Below are positions 26,681 to 52,064 of a DNA stretch of 54,313 nt, piece after piece. Source of the DNA: Candidatus Hydrogenedens sp. (GTDB taxonomy: Bacteria; Hydrogenedentota; Hydrogenedentia; Hydrogenedentales; Hydrogenedentaceae); the NCBI GenBank assembly GCA_049968235.1, contig JBMFRC010000022.1, positions 1-54,313 on the forward strand. Reading direction: 5' to 3'. Position numbers and translations under genes: made by a program. The notes beneath the pieces are model-generated. The model worked only from the letters and a program-made list of their open reading frames with translations. It ran no database searches and had not been told where the DNA came from. The number at the start of each line of letters is the position of its first letter. Position 1 is the stretch's first letter.

Positions 26681-27682
26681 ATGGTAGATTTAACAACAAA
26701 CTATATCGGATTGAAACTCAGAAACCCCCTTGTTGTTTCACCTTCCCCTTTGTGTGACAACATTGATAACATAAAACGAATGGAAGATAGAGGTGCTTCC
26801 GCTGTTGTTTTACATTCATTATTTGAAGAACAAATTACTTTATTAAGCCATGAATTAGATACCAATCTTTCGTATGGTGCTGAGAGTTTTGCAGAAGCCA
26901 TTACCTATTTCCCCGACTTAGGTGATTTTCGTATGGGTCCCGATGCTTATCTGGAGCATATATATAAAGCAAAGCAATCCGTTTCCATTCCTATTATGGG
27001 TAGTTTAAATGGCGTATCAAAGGGGGGGTGGATTGAATATGCCAAGAAGATTCAAGAAGCCGGTGCGGATGCCCTTGAACTCAATATCTATTTTATTCCT
27101 ACCGACCCTAATCTAACAAGTGATTATGTCTCCAATATGTATGTTGAACTGGTTAAAGAAATTAGAAAAGTAGTTACTATTCCCTTAGCCGTCAAAATAG
27201 GTCCTTATTTCAGTTCTCTGCCGAATGTGGCTAAAAGACTGGCTGAAGCCGGTGCCAATGCTCTGGTTTTCTTTAATCGTTTTTATCAACCCGATTTTGA
27301 CCTTGATAATTTAGAAGTTACCCCTCATATCAATCTTAGCACATCCAATACTTTATTACTTCGCTTACGCTGGGTGGCTATTCTATATAGTAGGATTCCT
27401 ATTGATTTTGCAATTACAGGTGGAGTTCATACAGCAGAAGATGTAATAAAATCCATGATGGCAGGCGCAAAAGTATCTATGATGACTTCAGCACTGCTAA
27501 AATTTGGCATACCTCATTTATCAACCGTTCTGAAAAAATTAGAACAATGGATGAATGAACACGAGTACGATTCTATTGAAATAATGCAGGGAAGTATGAG
27601 CCAGAAGTCGGTAAACGAACCTGCTGCATTTGAACGGGCAAATTACATGCATGCAATTACTCGCTATACCGCAGGGAGTTAA
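26681..27682 (+). CDS. dihydroorotate dehydrogenase-family TIM-barrel flavoprotein (PyrD/PreA-like), function uncertain
   Basis: [14 protein letters not shown], a central Lys-containing loop and C-terminal GGV...G resemble DHOD class 1 / dihydropyrimidine dehydrogenase catalytic barrels. There is no Fe-S C-terminus. Confidence 0.6.
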
Positions 27683-29897: not shown

Positions 29898-30970
29898 ATA
29901 TTAACGAATTAAGAAAAAAAATCGATGAGATTGACCAGAAAATCATTAGCCTTCTAAATGAACGAGCCTACTGTGCTCAAGAGATAGGCAAAATTAAAAG
30001 TGGTTCACAGGCACCTTTTTATGTACCCGAACGCGAAAAATCCGTAATAGAAAAATTACTACAATCCAATCACGGTCCATTAGATGAACGGGCTATCCGT
30101 TCCATCTATCGCGAAATCATGAGTGCCATCCGTTCCCTTGAAAAACCGACCAGCGTTGCCTTCTTAGGACCTCGCGATACTTTCAGTCACATGGCTGCCT
30201 TACGTGTATTTGGCACCTCCGCCGAATATCATCCATTGCCTTCTTTTGCAGATGTATTTACAGAAGTAGAACGACATCGCATCGATTACGGAGTTGTTCC
30301 TATTGAAAGTTCAACGGGTGGTTCTGTAAGTGATACTCTGGATTTATTTATCAATTCAGAATTGAAGATTATTAATGAAGTTCTCCTCCAAATTTCTCAG
30401 AACCTCCTTGCAAAATGTCCCATTGACCAGGTTCGTCGGGTATATTCAAAAGATAATGCTCTACTTCAATGCAGAAATTGGCTTCGGGCAAATCTCCCCG
30501 GTGTTGAATTAATTGAGGTATCCAGTACCGCAGAAGCCGCAAGACGCGCTTCTCAAGAACCCAATACTTCTGCTATTGCCAGCAAATTAGCCGCAGAAAC
30601 TTATAATCTCGAAATTATCGCAGAACATATTGAAGACATTCCGCATAACTATACAAGGTTTGTCGTTTTAGGACATCAAATTGTAGAGCCTACCGGAGAT
30701 GACAAAACATCGCTCCTTTTATCGGCAAAAGATAAACCCGGAGCCTTGTTCAACCTTCTTATGCCCTTTGCTGAATTTAACATTAATTTAACCCGTATTG
30801 AATCCCGTCCGTCTCGCCAAAAACCCTGGGAATATGTATTCTTCATTGATTTTCTCGGGCATATCAAAGATGAAAAGGTTCACCAAGTTATTGAGGATGT
30901 TAGTGACCGAGCAAGAGACCTGAAAATATTAGGTTCATTCCCTCGTGCTACTATTGAACTCGAAGCATAG
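29894..30970 (+). CDS. pheA: bifunctional chorismate mutase / prephenate dehydratase (P-protein)
   Basis: CM domain ELRKKIDEIDQKIISLLNERA, PDT domain, and C-terminal ACT domain (ESRPS). Confidence 0.9.
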   Translation: MNINELRKKIDEIDQKIISLLNERAYCAQEIGKIKSGSQAPFYVPEREKSVIEKLLQSNHGPLDERAIRSIYREIMSAIRSLEKPTSVAFLGPRDTFSHMAALRVFGTSAEYHPLPSFADVFTEVERHRIDYGVVPIESSTGGSVSDTLDLFINSELKIINEVLLQISQNLLAKCPIDQVRRVYSKDNALLQCRNWLRANLPGVELIEVSSTAEAARRASQEPNTSAIASKLAAETYNLEIIAEHIEDIPHNYTRFVVLGHQIVEPTGDDKTSLLLSAKDKPGALFNLLMPFAEFNINLTRIESRPSRQKPWEYVFFIDFLGHIKDEKVHQVIEDVSDRARDLKILGSFPRATIELEA

Positions 30971-31121
30971 AGATACATAAAAATTGATTATTAATGAGTA
31001 TCGAGGAATAAGTTCTATATCTTCATCTTATTTACACAAACCCATTGACTAACACTATCTTATTTATTTTATCAGACTAATAAAAAAAGACTTGACAAAT
31101 ACTTTATTTTGTATGAGACCT

Positions 31122-31377
31122 CTGAACGATTGTATAAGAGGTCGGAGTATAAATTATACATTTTCTTACGAGATAAAATCCTAATGAGAAATTAAAATAC
31201 AAGAGCCTATATCTCTCTTTTTACCCATTTTATTTGTTATTTTACATCCGTTTTTCTATCTTTTTGTTATCTATGCATATTTTCCCTTTTGCTCTCTTAA
31301 TTTCCCATACATCCTCTTCAAATCATATGCAGTTATTAACAAGAAATGATATACTCCTCTCTCTGTGTCCTCTGTTG
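31122..31377 (+). repeat. dispersed ~250-bp intergenic repeat, copy B (same orientation as copy A)
   Basis: See copy A. It ends in a 16-bp-stem hairpin (31361..31411). Confidence 0.8.
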
Positions 31378-31960
31378 TAAAAAGAATATAATCACCACAG
31401 AGAACACAGAGAAAACATCATATACTGTTTAACAATGCATAAAATAGTAAGGATGAAAGCCTTTGCTCTCCCCAGTTCGTTTTATATCCTTCGCTCTCTA
31501 TCCACCTCTGCTCAAATTCCTCAATGGTATCACCTCTTGCATCTGTCTCTAAAAAATATCTGTAACGGGTCGGTTTCTGATGAGGCATCTCGTAATCTAT
31601 AAAAAAAACTTGTTTGCTCTATCTTTTCGGTATACAGCAATGACCTTTCTTCATTTTTAGTTTTTCCTTGTTTTGTTATTTAACCCACAATAGTTCTGCT
31701 GTATTTATACTACTTCTCTCTATTCTCGTTTCATTTTTTCTCTCACCCCTTCTCGTATATAATTTATATCATCTAACTCGGATGACTTATTCAAAACTCT
31801 CATGTATATTTTCATGCTCAGGTAAAATATGCTTATTTGTATTTATTCCTTTTATAAAACCTATTAATAATAAGCCTTTGTTAGATACAGAGGCTATGGT
31901 CTGAAAGATAAGCGAAGAATGTCACAGTAAATACTGCGTATTTTAGAAAACATCCTGAGA

Positions 31961-32062
31961 ATTTGGATAAAACAAAAAAGCAAGGATAGTAATAACTTCC
32001 TTCAACCACACCTTCAAGGGTGCCTTATTTGGATAAGGCAAAAAAGCAAGGATAGTAATAAC
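31961..32062 (+). repeat. CRISPR-like mini-array: two 36-bp direct repeats (2 mismatches) separated by a unique 30-bp spacer
   Basis: R1 31961..31996 ATTTGGATAAAACAAAAAAGCAAGGATAGTAATAAC; R2 32027..32062 ATTTGGATAAGGCAAAAAAGCAAGGATAGTAATAAC; spacer TTCCTTCAACCACACCTTCAAGGGTGCCTT is not repeated. Confidence 0.3.
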
Positions 32063-32286
32063 ATTTCGCGTAAATGCATTTGCAAAGCATGAGTTTCCAA
32101 AAAAAAAAAAGAGTTTATGTATGTGAGGGAAATACTGTTTAGTTGAGAAGAATATGGAAAGAACCGTGGAGTAATCTGGGTAGATCTAGAGACTGAACAA
32201 GTAATCGGGGCAGGTCCCTATAAGCAAGATGTGCAATAGTTTATGATGTTATATCTTTTGTCTGTAATGAATAGAGAAATTCAGAA

Positions 32287-33138: not shown

Positions 33139-34752
33139 ATGAGCCAATTTATCCTCGTATATGCTCCCGCGAACATTAAAGACATTAAAGTTTTCACTCC
33201 TAAACGCTCCATTGCTGTTATGGCTCAGTTGCTGCAAGATAACCATATAAATTCAACAATTTATGATTTTGGTATTCCCGAAGCAATTCAATATTACTCT
33301 AATGATATAACAAATAAATGTATTAGTAGAAATGAGACAAAAGAGAACAAAATAGGATTATGGCTTTCCAGGGTATTGGGAAATGGAAAACAGAAAAGAG
33401 ATATTAAAAATTCATACCTCCGTTGGATATATCAGAACATAAAAATTTCTTCCCATACCGTTTGTGTATTATTCTGGATAGAAAACAGAGAAGACCTTAT
33501 CGTTGCCCGTATTCTTGCTGATGAAATAAGAAAAGAAGAAACTGCAAATAAGGTTCATATTATAGGAGCAGGACCCTATTTAAATCATACAGGTCCCTAT
33601 GTTATTACCAATATTCCCGAATTCAATGGTATATTGATAAATCACAGTGAAATTTCCGTTCTACCTTTATGGGAACATCTTACCTCTGAGAAAGATTTAC
33701 ATTCAGTTCCTAATTATGTGTACCTCGAAGGAAACGAAATTCGTGTTGGACCTGTAAATCGCTTTTTAAGCCTCGATGATTTGCCAATTCCCTCTTATGA
33801 TAACTATGATGCCCTCCAGATAGGAGGAAAATTAAATATATTTACATTGGAACATGTAAGAGATGGTAGATTAGGCTATTCGGAACCTTATTCGCTCAAA
33901 CCTTATGTAAGTGCGAGTCCGGAAAATCTTCTGGAGGAAATAGGGAAACTCAGAGAAAAATACAGCACATGGACATTCCATATTGAAGGAGAGATGGCAA
34001 ATTCTACTGATGTTCAATCATTATCTTTGGCTTTATTAAAGTCTCCTCACTTTATAACATACTCCCGTAATTTCCATTGCTTAAATATTCAAGGGGATTG
34101 GATTCATAGTTTACATCTTTCTGGCTGTCGTGCTGTTTCTGTAAATGTGCCTACGGGCAGTCAACGATTGTTATCAAAATATTATGGTATTATGCGAACC
34201 ATCAGTTCTTTAGAAACTGCTATATCTGCCTTTGTCGCTTCTCATTTCTTCACCTCTATACAATGTTCCTACCCCTGCCCGGAGGAAGACCGTCATACCT
34301 TTTCTGAAACTTTACGATTTATAAAACGAATTAAACCCGATAGTGTCAAAGTTACACCTGTTTACCTTTTACCCGATTCCATGTGGTGGGAAAATATGAA
34401 TTCGTTTAACTTTAATGTAAATTCAACAGAATATATAGAATGGCTTGCAGGTGAACCGAGTTCGACGAAATACTTGCAATGGAAACCTTATGATTTATCA
34501 ACGATGATTGATGAAATTGTAAAGTTAAGTGTAACGCCTCAAACAGATTCCCTGATGGGTATTATTACTCATGTTTTACAAATATCAAAGGAACAAAAAT
34601 TCTTCAGGAATTTTTTTGAAAAAGTCCTTTTAGAAGGCGATGCGGATAGTCTGCAAGGTATGATTTCTCAGTTTAATAATCAATTAAAGAAAAGAATTCA
34701 CGAAGAAGAGTGGAATGTTAGAAAATATAATTTCAAAGCAGTTGCAAATTAA
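33139..34752 (+). CDS. B12-binding-domain / radical-SAM-like protein that lacks the CxxxCxxC cluster (probable non-catalytic homolog)
   Basis: The N-terminal domain resembles the cobalamin-binding domain of class B radical SAM enzymes. LDDLPIPSYDNYDAL...FTLEHVRDGRLGYSEPYSLKPY...SPENLLEEIGKL follows the usual rSAM template (dLdsLPfPdYd...TSRGCPxxCxFC...spe.v..Ei), but no Cys triad is present. Confidence 0.45.
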   Translation: MSQFILVYAPANIKDIKVFTPKRSIAVMAQLLQDNHINSTIYDFGIPEAIQYYSNDITNKCISRNETKENKIGLWLSRVLGNGKQKRDIKNSYLRWIYQNIKISSHTVCVLFWIENREDLIVARILADEIRKEETANKVHIIGAGPYLNHTGPYVITNIPEFNGILINHSEISVLPLWEHLTSEKDLHSVPNYVYLEGNEIRVGPVNRFLSLDDLPIPSYDNYDALQIGGKLNIFTLEHVRDGRLGYSEPYSLKPYVSASPENLLEEIGKLREKYSTWTFHIEGEMANSTDVQSLSLALLKSPHFITYSRNFHCLNIQGDWIHSLHLSGCRAVSVNVPTGSQRLLSKYYGIMRTISSLETAISAFVASHFFTSIQCSYPCPEEDRHTFSETLRFIKRIKPDSVKVTPVYLLPDSMWWENMNSFNFNVNSTEYIEWLAGEPSSTKYLQWKPYDLSTMIDEIVKLSVTPQTDSLMGIITHVLQISKEQKFFRNFFEKVLLEGDADSLQGMISQFNNQLKKRIHEEEWNVRKYNFKAVAN

Positions 34753-34790: not shown

Positions 34791-35714
34791 ATGGATATAA
34801 CCGTAGTTGGTTCCATAGCATTAGATTCCGTCGAAACTCCCTATGGAAAATGTGAGTTAGAATTGGGTGGTGCTGCAACATATTTTTCCATAGCTGCTTC
34901 CTTTTTTACACACGTAAATATGATTGGTGTTATTGGAACCGATTTCCCGAGTGAATATATTCAGATATTAAAATCACGAAATATTAATATCGATGGATTA
35001 AAAAAAGTGGAAGGAAAAACCTTCCGCTGGTCAGGTCGCTATCATAAAGACATTAATCAACGGGATACATTGGATACACAACTTAATGTTTTTGAAACAT
35101 TTAACCCCGACATATCCAAAGAAATCGCACAGGTTCCCTATTTATTTCTCGGAAATATTAATCCTTCTTTACAATTAGATGTATTACGCCAGACATTCCC
35201 GCGTTTTACAGGCATGGATACAATGAATTTATGGATAGAAACGACACCGGACGATTTACAGGAAGTTCTGAGTCGTGTTGATATTCTTTTTATTAATGAT
35301 TCTGAAGCGAAACAACTTTCCGGTGAAGACAATTTGAAAAAAGCCAGTAGAGAAATACTTGCATTAGGTCCCGATGTACTGATTATCAAAAAGGGAGAGC
35401 ATGGTTGCATGTTATTCTTTGAGGACGAAGAAAGTTTTATGTTACCTGCATACCTATTAGAAAATGTTGTGGACCCCACAGGTGCTGGTGATAGTTTTGC
35501 AGGTGGTTTTATGGGTTACATCGCCTATAAAAACAGCATCGAGCCCGAAATATTACGACAGGCAACAGTAATTGGCTCCGTAGTCGCCTCTTTTACATGT
35601 GAATCTTTCGGACCTCGCCGTCTGTTATCCCTGACCGGGGAAGAACTTAAAAAACGCTGTTACGAATTTATTCAACAAACTCGCCTTCATGACCTTCCCC
35701 AATTCCCATTTTAA
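34791..35714 (+). CDS. PfkB-family carbohydrate/nucleoside kinase
   Basis: N-terminal GG motif and C-terminal DPTGAGDSFAGGFMGYIA (PfkB signature 2). Confidence 0.85.
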   Translation: MDITVVGSIALDSVETPYGKCELELGGAATYFSIAASFFTHVNMIGVIGTDFPSEYIQILKSRNINIDGLKKVEGKTFRWSGRYHKDINQRDTLDTQLNVFETFNPDISKEIAQVPYLFLGNINPSLQLDVLRQTFPRFTGMDTMNLWIETTPDDLQEVLSRVDILFINDSEAKQLSGEDNLKKASREILALGPDVLIIKKGEHGCMLFFEDEESFMLPAYLLENVVDPTGAGDSFAGGFMGYIAYKNSIEPEILRQATVIGSVVASFTCESFGPRRLLSLTGEELKKRCYEFIQQTRLHDLPQFPF

Positions 35715-35815
35715 TACCATTCCCTTTTAATAAAATAAGTAGTTGAATAGGTAAGATGTAAACTTCCATAATTACTTCCATAAAGAAATTTAAATCCACT
35801 CAAGGAAGTAAACCC

Positions 35816-37293
35816 ATGCCTAAAAAGAATCTCTACTTTCCCTTTTATTACATGTTGCTTGTTGCTTTTATTTTCTTGTCTCTACCTTCATTCACGGAAG
35901 AACTTGAAATTAATCTTGTTTATACAAATGACATCCACGATAATATCCGGCCCTCATATTTTGGTACGGGGGGGGGTTACCTTATATCGCTGGTTTTGTA
36001 AAACAATTAAGAGCAGAAAAACCTAATGTTATATTAGTTGATGCTGGTGATTTGACAGATAAAGGTGATATGGTCGCAGATGTGACTAATGGTGAAATTA
36101 TGTATCAGGCAGTTGAAAAAATGGGTTATCAGGTAATGGTTATAGGCAATCATGACATCAAAAAAGGGATTGAACAACTGTGTAAGTTAAAACAATTAGC
36201 CCCATCTGTGGAAATTGTAACCACAGATTATAAGGAAGGATTGGACAATTGTTTCAAACCCTGGGTGATAAAAAAAATAGGAGATTTTCCTATCGGTTTT
36301 ATAGGGATTATCAATTTCCGAATTGAAGAAATAAAATCTGCTATTGAAGGGATGAAACGCAATGAATGTCATTTTTTTATAGCCTTATGCCACTTAGGAA
36401 GCGGTACTTGCAAAGCCATATCCAAAAAAATTCCTGAAATATCAATATTCGTTTCCGGACATACACATGAGGTATTAAACGAAGCGATAGTATGTCCAGA
36501 AACAAATGCTATTATTGTTCAATCCGGTTCGCGTGCCATACGGGTTGGATATTTAAGAATAATTGTTGATACAAAAGAACAGAAAAATAAGAGTTATGAG
36601 AACAAATTGGTTGAGTTAAGACATGATTTAATTAAACCAGATGAAGATTTATTAAACTGGATATATGCTGAAGAGAAACGGGTATGCCCCATCGCTTCCG
36701 AATTTTTAATTGACAATAAAAAAACGATTAATGCCAGCCAAATTGCGATTCTTACATCGCTTGCTATTAAAGAAAAGACCCATGTAGATATTGCATTTTG
36801 CCCACCAAAACTGATTCGCAATGTTTTCCCACCAACCCAATTAGATTATAACGCTGTGTTCCTTACTGCAGGACATCGGGCAATAGAACAAGAGTGGATT
36901 CAAATCACATTAAAGGGCAAGCAGATTGAACAATATCTTAAAGATATATTAAAAAATCACTGGGATATGACCGAATGTGCAGGTATGGAATTCCATTATG
37001 AGAATAATACTTTACGAGACACTAATTTAAATGGTGATAAAGACTACAAAATTGCTATCTCAAAAACAGAATTTCAGAACCAATTATTACGGTCTTTACG
37101 AATGAGTGGTGAAAATAATATAGAAGATATTAAAAATGGAGCCATAGAATATGATTTTACATACATGGATGCTTTATCAGAATTTTTGAAAAGAATAAAA
37201 GAAAGTAGTTTAACCCTGGATGAGTATGTAGCCAGCATGAATATAAAAAACAGTGATATAAATAACCAAAATAATGATGAAATAGAAAATTAG
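35816..37293 (+). pseudogene. secreted 5'-nucleotidase / calcineurin-like metallophosphoesterase interrupted by a frameshift in a G9 homopolymer (35968..35976). It is tracked as two ORFs, 35816..36001 and 36052..37293.
   Basis: ORF1: signal peptide + LVYTNDIHDNI (metallophosphoesterase motif I) ending in ...YFGTGGG. The -1 frame continues without stops as GGGLPYIAGFVKQLRAEKPNVILVDAGDL...VIGNHD (motifs II and III). Adding one G or deleting two Gs restores a single ORF. Confidence 0.7.
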
Positions 37294-37324
37294 AAAAACA
37301 TTTTTTGCAGTTATTTAGATAGTG

Positions 37325-38695
37325 TTATGAACTAATCTGTTTCACGACATCTTCAATTAATTTACGGATTTCATTCATTCGTTTTGGAGTATCTGCTTCT
37401 ACCCGCATAACTAACTTTGGTGATGTATTTGAAGCACGAAGGAGTCCCCAACCATCCGGAAATTCGATTCGTGCTCCGTCAATAGTTATTACCTCGTAGC
37501 CTTTTTCCTGAAAATGTTTCGTAGCCTTTGCTACCACATCGAATTTCTTATCGTCAGAACACGGAAACTCCAGTTCAGGTGTGGAATGTCTTTTAGGAAT
37601 GGTATCTAACAATGCACTTAGAGGTTTTCCTTCATTGGCAATTAGTTCCAGAAGTCTGCATGCGGAATAAATCGCATCATCAAAACCGTACCAGCGATGT
37701 TTAAAGAAAATATGTCCACTCATTTCGCCTGCTACCTGTGCCTTTAACTTAATCATGGCAGATTTGATGTGCGAATGTCCTGTCCGCCACATAACGGCAT
37801 TTCCACCTGCTTTTTTTATTTCCTCATACATGCTCCGTGAACATTTAACCTCACCCAAAATCGTTGCGCCGGGTTTATTTTTTAAAATATCCCTTGCAAA
37901 TAGCACTAACAATTGATCGCCCCATAACATTTTCCCTTTATCATCACATCCACCTAATCGGTCAACATCTCCATCAAAGGCAATGCCGACATCCGCTTTA
38001 TGTTTTTTTACTGTTCTAATTAGTTCTTTCAGATTAGATTCTTTGGTTGGGTCAGGATGATGATTCGGGAAATTACCATCTACTTCACAATACAAAGGTA
38101 TTACTTCACAACCCAATTCCTTGAATAAAGGAACCGCAACTACACCACCGACGCCATTGCCTGCATCTACAACTACTTTTAATCTCCTTTTTAATGTAAT
38201 GTCCTTCAATATTCGTTTTTGATACTTCGGTACAATATTTAGTTTTGTAATAGACACTTCTTTTCTGCGAACAGGGAAATTTCCCGCTTCTACATACTTG
38301 CGGAACTCCTGAATTTGTTCTCCATAAATAGTAGTTTTTCCGACACCTATTTTTAAACCATTGTATTCTCCTGGATTATGGCTGGCTGTTATCATTAAAC
38401 CGCCATCTACTTCAAGGGTATTCATTGCAAAATAGGTCAAAGGCGTTGGAACCTCACCGATATCGATAACATTCATTCCTGCCCCTGTAATCCCATCAAT
38501 CAAAGCATGGCTAAAACTTTTACTACTAATCCTACCATCTCTACCAACAACCACAAGATTATTATGGATTGCCCGTTTTGCCTTCATATACGCCACATAC
38601 GCTTTCCCCAAAAGTTCCATAATATCTTCGGTTAAATCCTTGCCCGCAATACCACGCAAATCGTACTCACGAAAGATGTTCGGATTAACATTCAT
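37325..38695 (-). CDS. phosphomannomutase / phosphoglucomutase (alpha-D-phosphohexomutase family)
   Basis: Active-site TASHNPGEYNG, Mg loop FDGDVDRL, and sugar-binding GEMSGH. Confidence 0.9.
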   Translation of the reverse strand: MNVNPNIFREYDLRGIAGKDLTEDIMELLGKAYVAYMKAKRAIHNNLVVVGRDGRISSKSFSHALIDGITGAGMNVIDIGEVPTPLTYFAMNTLEVDGGLMITASHNPGEYNGLKIGVGKTTIYGEQIQEFRKYVEAGNFPVRRKEVSITKLNIVPKYQKRILKDITLKRRLKVVVDAGNGVGGVVAVPLFKELGCEVIPLYCEVDGNFPNHHPDPTKESNLKELIRTVKKHKADVGIAFDGDVDRLGGCDDKGKMLWGDQLLVLFARDILKNKPGATILGEVKCSRSMYEEIKKAGGNAVMWRTGHSHIKSAMIKLKAQVAGEMSGHIFFKHRWYGFDDAIYSACRLLELIANEGKPLSALLDTIPKRHSTPELEFPCSDDKKFDVVAKATKHFQEKGYEVITIDGARIEFPDGWGLLRASNTSPKLVMRVEADTPKRMNEIRKLIEDVVKQISS

Positions 38696-40496: not shown

Positions 40497-41455
40497 TGCG
40501 TATCCTTATTGCAGGCACAGGGAAATTAGGTGTTTGTGTTGCTGAACCATTAATAAAAAGTCAACACCAGATTATTGGAATCCTTCAAAATGGCAGACAA
40601 ACCCGGGGGGTACGACGATTCACCAATCAGGTGTTTTTGGGTCTCTTCGGTGGACATGATAGTATTCTTCATTTTGCTTGGAAAAACCACATTCCTGTTT
40701 TCTGGATTGATAAAATGGATGAGGAAGAACTAAAACCAATAAAAGAATGCTCCCCCGACCTTATTATCACCTGTGGTTTCGGTATTATTTTTAAAAAGCC
40801 AATATTGTCCCTTCCTAAAATCGGTTGTATTAATGTCCATTCATCCTTATTACCACGCCATCGGGGTCCGAATCCCTTTTATGCAGTAATACGGCAGGGT
40901 GAAACACAGTCCGGAGTTACTTTTCACATTATGGACGAGGGTATTGATACCGGTCCTATTGTTGCACAGCAATCCTTTCCTATTCTTGACACGGATACCG
41001 CTTATTCGGTATATTGTCGGGCTTCTGAAATGGCGAAAACGATGGTGCTGGATGTTGTAAACCGTATTACAAAAGAAGGATTGCATGGAGAACCCCAAAA
41101 CCCTGACCTATCTTCTTATGACCCGAAACCTACCGTAAATGATGCTATTATTCACTGGAATGTTCCTGCTATTGAAATTGACCGTCAGATTCGTGCCTTA
41201 TCCCAGACTATTCTGACACGCTTTACATACAAAGGTAGAACCGTTTTCGTAACCCGTGTCAGGGTTAATGAGAAAGAAATAACTGCAAAACCGGGAACTG
41301 TCCTCCATGCCCGTTTTCCTGCGGAGATTGCAACTGCGAAAGGTTCCATTACATTACTTTCTGCGTTTACCCTTTCTCCAATAATGTGGCTTTGGCCCCG
41401 TAAAAGAACACTTTCCATTGGGGAAGTAATATGCACTGAAACAGAAGAAATTTAA
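40496..41455 (+). CDS. formyltransferase-family protein (Fmt-like)
   Basis: INVHSSLLPRHRGPNPFYAVIRQGETQSGVTFHIMDEGIDTGPIVAQ is the formyl_trans_N catalytic motif (HxSLLPxxRG...D). The N-terminal region is atypical for canonical Fmt. Confidence 0.7.
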   Translation: MRILIAGTGKLGVCVAEPLIKSQHQIIGILQNGRQTRGVRRFTNQVFLGLFGGHDSILHFAWKNHIPVFWIDKMDEEELKPIKECSPDLIITCGFGIIFKKPILSLPKIGCINVHSSLLPRHRGPNPFYAVIRQGETQSGVTFHIMDEGIDTGPIVAQQSFPILDTDTAYSVYCRASEMAKTMVLDVVNRITKEGLHGEPQNPDLSSYDPKPTVNDAIIHWNVPAIEIDRQIRALSQTILTRFTYKGRTVFVTRVRVNEKEITAKPGTVLHARFPAEIATAKGSITLLSAFTLSPIMWLWPRKRTLSIGEVICTETEEI

Positions 41456-49619: not shown

Positions 49620-50036
49620 ATGGATGCTTACTTATTTATTTGCCTCGGAACAAGAGATGTTCAAATAGAAAATTCCATTAATTTAGAAGGGGATTTGCAT
49701 AAAACTTTAGAAGAGTGTAAATATCCATGGAAAGAGAAAGATAAAAACTTTCGTGGGTTAAATGTTCGCAAATTGGGACATTGGTTATATGATAATTTTG
49801 ATAAAGTTAAAGAAATAATTAGAATACCATTAAGTGAACCATTTTTAAATCACATAGAAAATGAAAGTCATACTATAAAACAGATTTATCTTATCGCTAC
49901 GGACCAACAAAAAACAATTGAAGAAAGTGCAAAGGAACATTTAGAAAGAGATACCTGTATAATAGCAGATTTCTTAAAAGAAAAATTTTTCCCGTATTTC
50001 TTTACTAAAAAAAGATGCTTACCCTTCCCGATATAG
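49620..50036 (+). CDS. N-terminal part of a CARF-HEPN (Csm6/Csx1-like) protein. It is out of frame with the next ORF at an A7 tract (50007..50013).
   Basis: The first strand MDAYLFICLGTRDV resembles the CARF beta1 plus G[TS] motif. A 22-bp overlap with the next ORF and insertion of one A fuse the two frames (…FFTKK-K-MLTLPD…). Confidence 0.5.
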   Translation: MDAYLFICLGTRDVQIENSINLEGDLHKTLEECKYPWKEKDKNFRGLNVRKLGHWLYDNFDKVKEIIRIPLSEPFLNHIENESHTIKQIYLIATDQQKTIEESAKEHLERDTCIIADFLKEKFFPYFFTKKRCLPFPI

Positions 50037-51112
50037 TTACTATTACTCTCAATGATCCGCCCAATAGCTATGATTTAATGATAAAAGAATTTAGTGATAA
50101 GTTAGGGAAAATTTATGGAGATAATGAAAATCAATATTTAGTCTGTGCAGAAATTACAGGAGGGACCCCTCACATTAATACATCTATTATTTTAAATTGT
50201 ATCAAATTTTTTAGAAACAAAGTTACATTTATCTATAAACCTGAAAATTCAAACGACATTAGGTCTCTTAATATTGCCAAATATATATTAAGTTCATATG
50301 AACATGAAAATTTAAAACAACTTGTTGAAAGATATGATTTTGATGCAATTGTGCAGAATAAAAATTATTCAGACACAATCGGAAAGTTATCTTTATCTGC
50401 GTGCTATAGAGGAAACTTTGATTTTTTTTTTTATAAGAAAGAAATAGACAAAATGTATGATAATGTACCTAAAAATATGCTTGAGATATTAAGAAATGAT
50501 GCGTCTAAATTATGCGAAAAAGAACCCAATTCAATATTTAATGAACTTTACTGGAATACAGTAATTATGTGGAAGCGAGATGAGTGTGCAAATTTTATAG
50601 GAAGAGTCTGGAGGATTATGGAAGCATCTCTTCAATATTCATTGCTTGAAATTGTAGGATGTACATGGGATGAAATGAAGGAAAACTCAAATAAAAAAAC
50701 TTTTGAAAATAAATTTAGAAAGTGGGCAGAAGAAAATAAAGAGTTTTTAAAATATTTAGAAAAACAACAACATATTGCTCCTAATATGCCTATGCTTATT
50801 GCTTGTATCGATTTTCTTTCAGAGAGGGGACCGAACAGGGATAAATATAAAAATATTCAAAAGTGGGCGCAAAAACTGAGATCTTTTGCAACGATAAGAA
50901 ATAAATCAATTATAGCACATGGTTTTTGTGACATATCTAAGGAGATGATTAAGAATACCCTTGAAGATAAAGAAGAGGATATACTTATTATTGTTAGGTC
51001 ACTGATTGAAAGTGTAGGGATTCAATTGTCGGAGGAGAATCCATTTGATATTTTTAAAGAACTTTTAATAAATATTAATGAACAATATTTGAATGAAACT
51101 CTATATGTTTAA
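50015..51112 (+). CDS. C-terminal part of a CARF-HEPN (Csm6/Csx1-like) protein: CARF core motif plus C-terminal HEPN Rx4-6H motif
   Basis: LVCAEITGGTPHINTSIIL resembles the CARF D/N-x-T-G-G-T-K motif. ATIRNKSIIAHGF contains R-x6-H (HEPN Rx4-6H) about 65 aa from the C-terminus, as in Csm6. This gene looks visibly AT-richer than its neighbours. Confidence 0.5.
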   Translation: MLTLPDIVTITLNDPPNSYDLMIKEFSDKLGKIYGDNENQYLVCAEITGGTPHINTSIILNCIKFFRNKVTFIYKPENSNDIRSLNIAKYILSSYEHENLKQLVERYDFDAIVQNKNYSDTIGKLSLSACYRGNFDFFFYKKEIDKMYDNVPKNMLEILRNDASKLCEKEPNSIFNELYWNTVIMWKRDECANFIGRVWRIMEASLQYSLLEIVGCTWDEMKENSNKKTFENKFRKWAEENKEFLKYLEKQQHIAPNMPMLIACIDFLSERGPNRDKYKNIQKWAQKLRSFATIRNKSIIAHGFCDISKEMIKNTLEDKEEDILIIVRSLIESVGIQLSEENPFDIFKELLININEQYLNETLYV

Positions 51113-52064
51113 CAATCTTAGTTTTACAGTTCAGCGGGTTAGTTTTTTAGCGGAGGAGCCCTTGTTGGTGCCAGAATATAAGGGTTCGATGATTCGTGGT
51201 GCATTGGGTCATGCCTTAAAAAAAGTTTCCTGTGCGTTGAAGAGGTTTACCTGCCCGGAGTGTCCTATTCGTGAAAAATGTGCTTATAGTATGTGCTTTG
51301 AGACTCCTATCCCAAAATCATCAGAGATTATGAAAAAATATCCTAAAGCACCTCATCCCTATATTCTCGAACCCCCTATTGAGTCAAAAGAGCGTTATGA
51401 ACCCGGCGAGGTATTTGAGTGTAATTTAACCCTTGTTGGTAGAGCAAAGGATTTCTTACCGCATTTTATCTATGCACTTGATGTGATGGCTGAGGAAGGT
51501 TTCGGTAGAGGACGAGGAAAATCTAAACTTATATCCCTTGATTATCTTACTCCTGAAAACAAATGGAACGCCCTATATTCGCCTGAGGCAAATGAATTCT
51601 TAGGGGAACCGTATTCCTTCAAGATACAGGATATTTTGCAAAAGAAAGAGCAACTTTTGTTGGATAAGAGAATAGAAATACAATATATAACACCTACACG
51701 ATTAGTTATAGACGGGAATCTCCATGATACGGGAGAAATAGCATATATCCTACCTGGATTACTTCGTAGACTTACTTTGTTGCAATACTTCTTTTGTGGT
51801 GGTTATTTAGAAAAGGATGTGATTTCTCTAGTAGAAGCGGGGAAAAATCTACAACCTTTACATTCTGCATTCCAGTGGCAGGATTGGGTCCGTTATTCAT
51901 CTCGTCAGGATAGAAAAGTAATTATGGGAGGTTTTATAGTGTCGATAGTATATGAGCAAATTCCTTCTGAAATCCTTGAAGTTCTTTGTTGGGGTGAAAG
52001 GTTACATATTGGCAAAGGAACTGTGTTCGGATTAGGTAAATATAATCTTCTGCCTGCAAACTGA
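51093..52064 (+). CDS. Cas6-like RAMP-superfamily protein (solitary, no CRISPR array nearby) with a Cys cluster
   Basis: N-terminal LLVPEYKGSMIRGALGHALKK parallels the Cas6 N-terminal strand-helix (e.g. PfCas6 FKVPYNHQYYLQGLIYNAIKS). The extreme C-terminal glycine-rich loop HIGKGTVFGLGKY follows GxGxxxxxGxG. There is a CxxC...C...C cluster (CPECPIREKCAYSMC). It overlaps the upstream stop by 8-20 bp and sits 4 bp before the next gene. Confidence 0.55.
   Translation: MKLYMFNNLSFTVQRVSFLAEEPLLVPEYKGSMIRGALGHALKKVSCALKRFTCPECPIREKCAYSMCFETPIPKSSEIMKKYPKAPHPYILEPPIESKERYEPGEVFECNLTLVGRAKDFLPHFIYALDVMAEEGFGRGRGKSKLISLDYLTPENKWNALYSPEANEFLGEPYSFKIQDILQKKEQLLLDKRIEIQYITPTRLVIDGNLHDTGEIAYILPGLLRRLTLLQYFFCGGYLEKDVISLVEAGKNLQPLHSAFQWQDWVRYSSRQDRKVIMGGFIVSIVYEQIPSEILEVLCWGERLHIGKGTVFGLGKYNLLPAN

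What the first reader, a model, noticed from the sequence alone, without database searches (positions are those of the whole stretch)
35816..37293. G9 homopolymer frameshift in a secreted 5'-nucleotidase: phase-variation candidate
The N-terminal 61-codon ORF carries the signal peptide and metallophosphoesterase motif I (YTNDIHD), then terminates after GTGGG. The -1 frame continues immediately, without stops, into motifs II and III (DAGD, GNHD) and a full 5'-nucleotidase-like C-terminal domain. The break is exactly at GGGGGGGGG (35968..35976), an unusual run for an AT-rich genome.

Slipped-strand mispairing at poly-G tracts is a classic ON/OFF switch for surface or secreted proteins. The alternative explanation is a homopolymer sequencing error.
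Basis: partly seen in the sequence, partly recalled or inferred. Interest (0 to 1): 0.55.

Follow-up and report, generated by a model that had tools for sequence, protein, structure and literature searches.

The report
Poly-G frameshift in secreted 5'-nucleotidase gene
A run of nine G's knocks a secreted nucleotide-cleaving enzyme gene out of frame in this uncultured bacterium, while a near-identical sister strain has seven G's and an intact gene, so it is probably a real slippage-prone on/off site of a well-known kind, not proven to be a purposeful switch.

Summary
A G9 run at 35968..35976 splits a 5'-nucleotidase/UshA-like gene (35816..37293). The 61-codon 5' ORF holds the signal-like N-terminus and motif I. 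The -1 frame holds every other motif and the C-terminal domain.

The window is a whole contig of an NCBI MAG named 'Candidatus Hydrogenedens sp.'. Two sister MAG contigs of the same species (99.7-99.9% nt) settle most of the question:
- One has G7 and an intact 491-aa gene, otherwise 1476/1476 nt identical to the window's gene.
- The other has G9 again, plus a second 1-bp deletion.

The G7 strain also differs by SNPs and by two extra CRISPR spacers, so these are distinct strains.

The tract encodes an invariant Gly-Gly. In six other species examined directly the same codons give runs of at most 5 G. In 51 homologues the run is 2-7 G and never longer.

Best reading: a recent slipped-strand +2 expansion of an incidental, lineage-specific G7 hot spot, giving an OFF allele that could in principle revert. 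This is a known kind of mechanism. Adaptive, high-frequency phase variation is unproven because no reads are available. The tract is not conserved, and one G9 strain shows further decay. A homopolymer sequencing artefact is less likely but not excluded.

The parts
35743..35772 (+). Promoter-like site (TTGAAT-18-CATAAT) upstream of the gene; weak consensus match only
   Evidence: The number of such sites in the region is no higher than in shuffles, so this is a suggestion only.
35816..35967 (+). 5' part of the 5'-nucleotidase-like gene in the original frame: basic and hydrophobic N-terminus (signal-peptide-like) and metallophosphoesterase motif I (TNDIHD)
   Evidence: T37, N38, D39, H41 and D42 are invariant in 20 homologues.
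35968..35976 (+). G9 homopolymer and site of the frame break. It covers the last base of the Thr codon ACG and the codons of the invariant Gly-Gly. The sister strain has G7 here.
35977..37293 (+). 3' part of the gene in the -1 frame: motifs GD (DAGD), GNHD, H192 and GHTHE, then the 5'-nucleotidase C-terminal-like domain and the stop codon
   Evidence: Identical in sequence to the intact allele in L010.
35816..36001 (+). The 61-aa ORF produced by the OFF allele, deposited as 'hypothetical protein' MGC8739366.1
36031..37293 (+). The deposited 420-aa 'metallophosphoesterase' call (MGC8739367.1, P0001). It starts at an ATA codon and lacks the signal sequence and motif I, so it is an annotation by-product of the frameshift.
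   Evidence: coordinates worked out.
34791..35714 (+). Upstream PfkB-family kinase gene. It keeps this position next to the nucleotidase gene in the two closest species but not in more distant ones. A nucleoside-salvage link is inference only.

Best explanation
The gene encodes an exported two-domain 5'-nucleotidase/UshA-like metallophosphatase. In this species the codons for Thr and the invariant Gly-Gly became ACG GGG GGG, an uninterrupted G7 inside the ORF. Slipped-strand mispairing during replication added two G's (G7 to G9, in one or two steps). Translation now stops after 61 residues, and the remainder, which lacks the signal sequence and the DxH metal ligands, cannot make an active enzyme. 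The strain in this window therefore carries a recent loss-of-function (OFF) allele, while a sister strain carries the ON allele (G7).

Shown: the tract, the frame break, the ON and OFF alleles in different strains, the absence of any other lesion in this window, and the protein family.

Inferred: that slippage is the mutational mechanism, that the difference is biological and not technical, and that the tract is an accidental hot spot and not a switch maintained by selection. Reversion (G9 to G7, or to G10 with one extra Gly) is mechanistically possible but unobserved.
For: 1. Tract and frame break are as described.
2. The window is a contig of an NCBI 'Candidatus Hydrogenedens sp.' MAG.
3. 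L010 (GCA_049969095.1) is 99.7-99.9% identical over 13.7 kb and has G7 with an intact 491-aa product, P0048. L011 (GCA_049971155.1) has G9 again.
4. The window's gene, reset to G7, matches L010's gene at 1476 of 1476 nt. dN/dS against the two nearest species is 0.11-0.15, so the gene was under purifying selection until very recently.
5. L010 is a genuinely different strain: 16 SNPs and two extra CRISPR spacers. L011 differs from the window by a SNP and an indel, so G9 was called in two independent assemblies.
6. G52 and G53 are invariant, and none of 20 homologues has a third Gly, so G7 is the ancestral-length allele.
7. Orthologues use GGA GGT, GGG GGA and similar codons, giving runs of at most 5 G. 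Across 51 species the run is 2-7 G. GGG and ACG are minority codons here, and only 1 of 62 Gly-Gly pairs in the window is GGGGGG. The tract is therefore lineage-specific.
8. Between the window and L010 only the two longest homopolymers differ in length (G9/G7 and A12/A13). Every run of 8 or fewer is identical.
9. No other split genes were found among 10 adjacent ORFs tested, and the in-frame T11 and the A8/T8 runs inside genes are intact. The assembly is not generally error-prone at homopolymers.
10. The protein family is supported by Metallophos plus a full-length fold match to 5'-nucleotidases.
Against: - No reads could be examined, so a technical origin of the G7/G9 difference is not excluded. 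The other length difference between the assemblies is also in a long homopolymer (A12/A13), which errors as well as real slippage would produce.
- The sequencing platform of these MAGs could not be established.
- Only three assemblies of the species exist in the collections searched.
- A +2 difference is less common than +/-1 for a single slippage event.
- If the tract switches fast and is maintained by selection, 'incidental hot spot' understates it.
Confidence: 0.6

Rival explanations
1. Sequencing or assembly artefact: the organism's true tract is in frame (G7 or G10) and G9 is a homopolymer-length miscall carried into the consensus.
For: [quoted passage not shown]
- The only other length difference between the window and L010 is also in a long homopolymer (A12 vs A13).
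- L011 is a short 3.4-kb contig carrying an additional 1-bp deletion at a non-repetitive site, which may reflect low coverage.
- The platform is unknown.
Against: - G9 was called in two independent assemblies that differ elsewhere, and G7 in a third.
- The difference is 2 nt, not 1.
- The paper cited says Illumina errors become a problem mainly for tracts longer than 14 bp.
- All eight A8/T8 runs inside genes, the in-frame T11 and the G7 at 27022 are intact, and no other gene tested is split.
- L010 is a distinct strain by SNPs and CRISPR spacers, so real differences between the assemblies are expected.
Confidence: 0.2
2. An evolved contingency locus: the G tract is maintained by selection as a high-frequency, reversible ON/OFF switch for a secreted or surface enzyme, for example to escape a phage or predator that uses it, or to alternate between producing and exploiting a shared extracellular enzyme.
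For: - The tract sits in the 5' part of an ORF for an exported protein, the typical setting.
- Both ON and OFF lengths occur in one species.
- The OFF gene has no other damage in this window.
- Four substitutions within 9 nt, relative to the nearest orthologues, created the run using minority codons.
- Length comparison between genomes is the accepted in-silico criterion for candidate phase-variable genes (PMC5320596).
Against: - The tract is absent from all orthologues examined, and G7 appears only sporadically (2 of 51) at this Gly-Gly site, as chance codon choice would give.
- There are no other long G/C tracts in 54 kb, and the other G7 does not vary between strains.
- G9 is shared by two strains that differ by a SNP, which suggests a stably inherited allele and not rapid flipping.
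- One G9 strain carries a second frameshift.
- Only G7 is known to be functional; G10 would insert a residue into a motif with no length variation in 20 homologues.
Confidence: 0.13
3. Recoding: the G9 allele is expressed as a full-length protein by programmed -1 ribosomal frameshifting on G GGG GGG or by transcriptional slippage on the G run.
For: - The downstream frame is -1 relative to the upstream frame.
- G_GGG_GGG formally fits the X_XXY_YYZ pattern with perfect tRNA re-pairing.
- The product would be TGGGLP..., the same as the G10 allele (derived).
Against: - There is no significant downstream structure (MFE z-score -1.33; 23 of 200 shuffles fold at least as well).
- The frameshift is not conserved: the sister strain and all orthologues are in frame.
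- From general knowledge, efficient bacterial slippery sites and transcriptional slippage sites are A/U-rich, not G runs.
Confidence: 0.03

Closest known systems
Homopolymeric-tract (simple sequence repeat) phase-variable genes of Neisseria, Haemophilus, Campylobacter and Helicobacter (e.g. pilC, hpuA, lgt genes)
   Same: A poly-G/C run inside the 5' part of an ORF for an exported or surface protein. The tract length sets the reading frame. Different lengths are found in different genomes of the same species, which is the criterion used to nominate candidates (PMC5320596).
   Different: In those organisms tracts occur at many loci, are conserved across strains, and switching has been measured. 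Here there is a single lineage-specific tract in an uncultured Hydrogenedentota MAG, no read-level or culture evidence, and the observed OFF state is +2 from the only demonstrated ON state.
Mycobacterium tuberculosis glpK homopolymer frameshifts
   Same: A metabolic gene, not an antigen gene, is reversibly inactivated by indels in a short G/C homopolymer. It is described as phase variation giving transiently heritable phenotypes (bioRxiv 10.1101/717272 and 10.1101/2022.06.10.495637, abstracts seen).
   Different: Reversion and phenotype were shown experimentally in M. tuberculosis. Here neither is available, and the enzyme is exported, not cytoplasmic.
Neisseria gonorrhoeae 'pyrimidine 5'-nucleotidase' NGO2055/NGK_2176 poly-C candidate
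   Same: A nucleotidase-annotated gene with a poly-C tract that differs between genomes (C6, C9, C10, or interrupted) and splits the ORF in some strains (PMC5320596).
E. coli UshA / Thermus 5'-nucleotidase (2z1a) / human CD73
   Same: Two-domain fold, with an N-terminal dimetal phosphoesterase bearing the DxH, GD, GNH(D/E), H and GHxH motifs plus a C-terminal nucleotide-binding domain. Foldseek E-values are 1e-33 to 1e-28 over about 500 columns, and there are sequence hits to the N-domain.
   Different: Only 15-18% identity. The C-domain is below the Pfam threshold for this protein. The protein belongs to a distinct clade found mainly in Hydrogenedentota and Opitutales MAGs. Its substrate is unknown.

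Membership tests
Homopolymer (SSR) phase-variable / contingency locus | G/C homopolymer of about 7 or more inside the ORF whose length determines the reading frame | tested here: met
   G9 at 35968..35976. The 61-aa ORF lies upstream and the rest of the gene is in the -1 frame. G7 or G10 restores the frame.
Homopolymer (SSR) phase-variable / contingency locus | Tract length differs among strains of the same species, with in-frame and out-of-frame alleles | tested here: met
   L010 has G7 and an intact 491-aa gene. The window and L011 have G9 and a broken gene. Identity elsewhere is 99.7-99.9%.
Homopolymer (SSR) phase-variable / contingency locus | Length heterogeneity within one population, i.e. 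high-frequency switching | not testable with these tools
   No read data are available. Only three consensus assemblies exist in the collections searched.
Homopolymer (SSR) phase-variable / contingency locus | Reversibility (OFF back to ON) | not testable with these tools
   This would need time series, culture or deep amplicon data.
Homopolymer (SSR) phase-variable / contingency locus | Tract maintained by selection: conserved in relatives and/or one of many such loci in the genome | tested here: not met
   Orthologues in six other species have runs of at most 5 G at the site. Across 51 homologues the run is 2-7 G. In this window the only other G/C runs of 6 or more are a G7 and a G6, and the G7 does not vary between strains. 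Only 54 kb of the genome was visible.
5'-nucleotidase / UshA / CD73 family | N-terminal calcineurin-like metallophosphoesterase domain with the DxH, GD, GNH(D/E), H and GHxH motifs | tested here: met
   Pfam PF00149 at E 8e-12. D39, H41, D75, G77/D78, G110-N111-H112-D113, H192 and H215-T216-H217 are invariant in 20 homologues.
5'-nucleotidase / UshA / CD73 family | C-terminal 5'-nucleotidase substrate-binding domain | tested here: met
   PF02872 scores only E 0.014 for this protein, below the cut-off. However, 17 of 20 family members match at E <= 0.01. The AF2 model (pLDDT 89.6) aligns over about 500 columns with 2z1a, UshA and CD73 at E 1e-33 to 1e-28.
5'-nucleotidase / UshA / CD73 family | Export signal and nucleotidase activity | not testable with these tools
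   The N-terminus MPKKN plus an 18-residue hydrophobic stretch plus PSFT/EE looks like a Sec signal (read by eye; no predictor was available). Activity and substrate are unknown.
Programmed -1 ribosomal frameshift site | Slippery heptamer plus a downstream stimulatory structure, conserved in relatives | tested here: not met
   G_GGG_GGG fits the formal pattern, but the downstream 90 nt fold no better than shuffles (z -1.33). Relatives are in frame without any shift.
Decayed pseudogene | Several independent disabling lesions and relaxed constraint | tested here: not met
   In the window the tract is the only lesion; the rest is identical to the intact allele at 1476 of 1476 nt. In sister contig L011, however, a second 1-bp deletion is present at the position of window 36528.

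The most novel reading that the evidence does not exclude
The G tract is a true contingency locus in a free-living, uncultured Hydrogenedentota bacterium. It would switch a secreted nucleotide-scavenging enzyme ON and OFF at high frequency within natural populations, for example so that cells alternate between paying for and exploiting a shared extracellular enzyme, or escape a phage or predator that recognises it. This would extend SSR phase variation from host-associated pathogens to an environmental candidate phylum and to a 'public-good' enzyme.
Probability: 0.12. Interest if true: 0.5.

Novelty: new member of a known kind. Interest (0 to 1): 0.3.

Why it matters
If the length difference is real, this is a clean natural example of a gene captured just after inactivation at a slippage-prone tract. 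The intact allele is still circulating in a sister strain, and a further-decayed allele is present in a third.

That makes it a small but concrete test case for three things:
- how often homopolymer frameshifts in MAGs are biology and how often error;
- whether SSR-mediated switching operates in environmental candidate phyla;
- annotation practice, since the deposited record splits the gene into a 'hypothetical protein' and a truncated 'metallophosphoesterase' and does not flag a frameshift.

It does not reveal a new mechanism.

Tried and rejected
- **JGI metagenome contigs.** A scan for the tract flanks with any spacer of 4-16 nt gave 0 hits. A protein-based scan returned only the contig of the 83%-identical species.
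- **GTDB species representatives.** A scan with the protein found no same-species genome. The alignment-based scan gave 79 distant loci, used only for the codon survey.
- **Exact look-ups of neighbouring proteins** (PfkB, PGM), to find hidden assemblies where the gene might be annotated as a pseudogene, returned only the two known sister contigs.
- **Programmed frameshifting.** No downstream structure was found, so it was rejected as the main explanation.
- **Rfam scan of the window.** Only two tRNAs were found.
- **General homopolymer error-proneness of the assembly.** Rejected: 10 adjacent ORFs are distinct intact genes, and the long A/T runs inside genes are in frame.
- **Literature search for the study behind the MAGs**, to learn the sequencing platform, found nothing.
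- **The three CRISPR spacers** gave no exact match in the viral contig collection.
- **Statistical rarity of the G9 run alone.** Not significant under dinucleotide shuffling (20 of 100 shuffles), so it was not used as an argument.

Full report
**1. The observation**

The window has 37.0% G+C. Its longest G/C homopolymer is a G9 at 35968..35976; the next longest are a G7 at 27022..27028 and a G6 at 40605..40610, and there is no C run of 6 or more.

An ATG at 35816 opens a 61-codon ORF ending at 36001. It reads MPKKNLYFPFYYMLLVAFIFLSLPSFTEELEINLVYTNDIHDNIRPSYFGTGGG, then YLISLVL and a stop. The frame one base back is open from just before the tract to 37293. It reads ...GGGLPYIAGFVKQLRAEKPNVILVDAGD...GNHD...SGHTHE....

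Two small corrections apply:
- The short ORF runs 8 codons past GTGGG.
- A G9/C9 run is not rare by itself. It occurs at least once in 20 of 100 dinucleotide-preserving shuffles of the window.

**2. What the gene is**

The repaired protein matches Pfam Metallophos (E 8e-12). It matches 5_nucleotid_C only weakly (E 0.014, below the cut-off). NCBIfam gives partial hits to SoxB, UshA-like and cyclic-nucleotide phosphodiesterase/nucleotidase models, all far below their cut-offs. PDB sequence hits are 5'-nucleotidases (CD73, UshA), covering the N-terminal domain only.

In an alignment of 20 homologues the dimetal-site motifs are invariant: D39/H41, D75 and G77-D78, G110-N111-H112-D113, H192, and H215-T216-H217. 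Seventeen of the 20 match PF02872 at E <= 0.01. An AlphaFold2 model of the intact allele has mean pLDDT 89.6 and pTM 0.82. It aligns over about 500 columns with the Thermus 5'-nucleotidase 2z1a, E. coli UshA and human CD73, with Foldseek E-values of 1e-33 to 1e-28.

The gene therefore encodes a two-domain UshA/CD73-type enzyme of a divergent clade, found mainly in Hydrogenedentota and Opitutales MAGs. The N-terminus looks like a Sec signal, but this was read by eye. Motif I lies upstream of the tract, so neither product of the G9 allele can be an active exported enzyme.

**3. Where the window comes from, and the key comparison**

The truncated 420-aa product and the 61-aa ORF are both deposited NCBI proteins of a 'Candidatus Hydrogenedens sp.' MAG. 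The record contig is 54,313 bp, the same length as the window. The 90%-identity cluster of the truncated protein holds two more members from sister MAGs, and their contigs were fetched.

- **L010** (GCA_049969095.1, contig of 21 kb) aligns to the window at 99.7-99.9% identity over 13.7 kb. It has G7 at the tract and an intact 491-aa gene.
- **L011** (GCA_049971155.1, contig of 3.4 kb) has G9 like the window, the identical 61-aa ORF, one SNP, and an additional 1-bp deletion at the position of window 36528. That deletion breaks the gene a second time.

Resetting the window's gene to G7 makes it identical to the L010 gene at all 1476 positions. dN/dS against the two nearest species is 0.11 and 0.15. 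In this window the tract is thus the only lesion in a gene that was under purifying selection until very recently.

**4. Are the assemblies independent and the strains different?**

Yes. Window and L010 differ in several ways:
- 16 SNPs;
- a nonsense change in L010's pheA;
- A12 versus A13 in an intergenic run;
- a 133-bp block that turns out to be two extra repeat-spacer units of a small CRISPR array.

L011 shares a SNP with L010 at window position 37558 but shares G9 with the window. There are therefore three haplotypes, and G9 was assembled twice independently.

**5. Is the assembly generally unreliable at homopolymers?**

No sign of it was found. All A8/T8 runs inside genes are in frame, as are a T11 inside a Csm6-like gene and the G7 at 27022. 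Ten adjacent ORFs that might have been split genes are distinct intact families.

Between the window and L010 only the two longest homopolymers differ in length. Real slippage would produce that pattern, and so would length-dependent sequencing error, so it does not separate the two. A methods paper states that Illumina can make spurious homopolymer indels, especially above 14 bp, affecting up to about 1% of genes in a metagenome (PMC8808543). The platform used for these MAGs could not be found. The fragmented contigs suggest short reads, but this is inference.

**6. Is the tract conserved?**

No. The nearest species (83% and 78% amino-acid identity) read GGT ATT GGA GG[T/G] at the same place and are two bases shorter than the window, which is the length of the G7 allele. 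Four further species read GGG GGA, GGA GGG or similar, giving at most 5 G's.

Among 51 species-level homologues in which the motif could be located, the G run at this site is 2-7 nt. It reaches G7 twice, in L055 and L075, both reading GTG GGG GGG CTG CCC, and is never longer.

The two glycines are invariant, and no homologue has a third. In this genome GGG makes up 16.6% of Gly codons and ACG 11.4% of Thr codons, and only one of 62 Gly-Gly pairs is GGGGGG.

The picture is of an obligatory GGN-GGN dipeptide that here happened to become an uninterrupted G7, a mutational hot spot, and then expanded.

**7. Mechanism and rivals**

*Best explanation (0.6).* A real slipped-strand expansion from G7 to G9 created a recent OFF allele at an incidental hot spot. 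Reversion is possible in principle but has not been observed.

*Artefact (0.2).* This cannot be excluded without reads. It is disfavoured by the repeat G9 call, the 2-nt difference and the otherwise clean homopolymers.

*Evolved contingency locus (0.13).* It fits the gene class and the ON/OFF polymorphism. It is disfavoured by several observations:
- the tract is not conserved;
- there are no other such tracts in 54 kb;
- G9 is shared by two strains that differ by a SNP;
- L011 carries a second lesion.

*Recoding by -1 frameshifting or transcriptional slippage (0.03).* There is no downstream structure (z -1.33) and no conservation of the shift.

**8. Comparison with what is known**

The mechanism is that of classic homopolymer phase variation. 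Comparing tract lengths between genomes is the accepted way to nominate candidates. A Neisseria gonorrhoeae study lists, among others, a poly-C tract in a 'pyrimidine 5'-nucleotidase' gene (PMC5320596). Metabolic genes can behave this way too, as with M. tuberculosis glpK (abstracts).

Against the defining features of a phase-variable locus, this site scores as follows:
- it meets the structural criterion and the between-strain criterion;
- it fails the conservation and multiplicity criterion within what could be seen;
- within-population heterogeneity and reversibility could not be tested.

It should be filed as a candidate, a new member of a known kind, and not as a demonstrated switch.

**9. 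Verdict**

This is a well-documented, probably genuine ON/OFF polymorphism, ordinary in mechanism. Interest 0.3.

Noticed in passing
window 31961..32062 (and L010 6012..6249): A mini CRISPR array that neither Rfam nor TRF flagged in the window. It has a degenerate 36-nt repeat (31961..31996, 2 mismatches), a 30-nt spacer (31997..32026) and a full repeat ATTTGGATAAGGCAAAAAAGCAAGGATAGTAATAAC (32027..32062), followed by an A-rich putative leader. The sister strain L010 has the same array with two extra spacers on the leader side (4 repeats, 3 spacers), so the strains differ by CRISPR adaptation or spacer loss. None of the three spacers has an exact match in the viral contig collection.
   Followed up: partly
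window 32099..32110: An A12 run in the putative CRISPR leader is A13 in sister contig L010. It is the only homopolymer other than the G tract that differs in length between the two assemblies.
   Followed up: partly
window 50015..51112, T11 at 50422..50432: A Csm6-like gene (CARF residues 8-82, HEPN residues 178-313) contains an in-frame T11 (GAT TTT TTT TTT TAT, encoding D-F-F-F-Y) between its two domains. This is another slippage-prone tract inside a coding region. It is followed by a Cas6-like gene at 51093..52064. No sister contig covers it.
   Followed up: partly
window 30738..31428 (L010 4789..5479): Eight of the 16 SNPs between the window and L010 cluster here. One of them (window 30829, TGG to TGA in L010) truncates the chorismate mutase/prephenate dehydratase from 358 to 311 aa and removes the ACT domain. 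This could be a recombination tract, relaxed constraint or strain mixing in the L010 assembly.
   Followed up: no
window 35816..36001 and 36031..37293: The deposited annotation splits the frameshifted gene into a 61-aa 'hypothetical protein' and a 420-aa 'metallophosphoesterase' whose start falls on an ATA codon, and does not mark a frameshifted pseudogene.
   Followed up: yes
L001 7719..8181 (and L002-L008), versus window 37294..37324: In the 83%-identical species a 42-aa ORF and a 91-aa HEPN-domain gene lie between the nucleotidase gene and the phosphoglucomutase gene. In the window the two genes are only about 30 nt apart. This is a small insertion or deletion of a possible toxin-antitoxin-like pair.
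   Followed up: no
L011 2029 (position of window 36528): Sister contig L011 has a 1-bp deletion (CCGGTTCG to CCGGTCG) at a non-repetitive site in the same gene, in addition to G9. It is either further decay of the OFF allele or a low-coverage error in a 3.4-kb contig.
   Followed up: partly
window 33139..34752: A 537-aa ORF upstream of the PfkB kinase gene has no Pfam hit on record, yet keeps its position in the sister strain and in the 83%-identical species.
   Followed up: no
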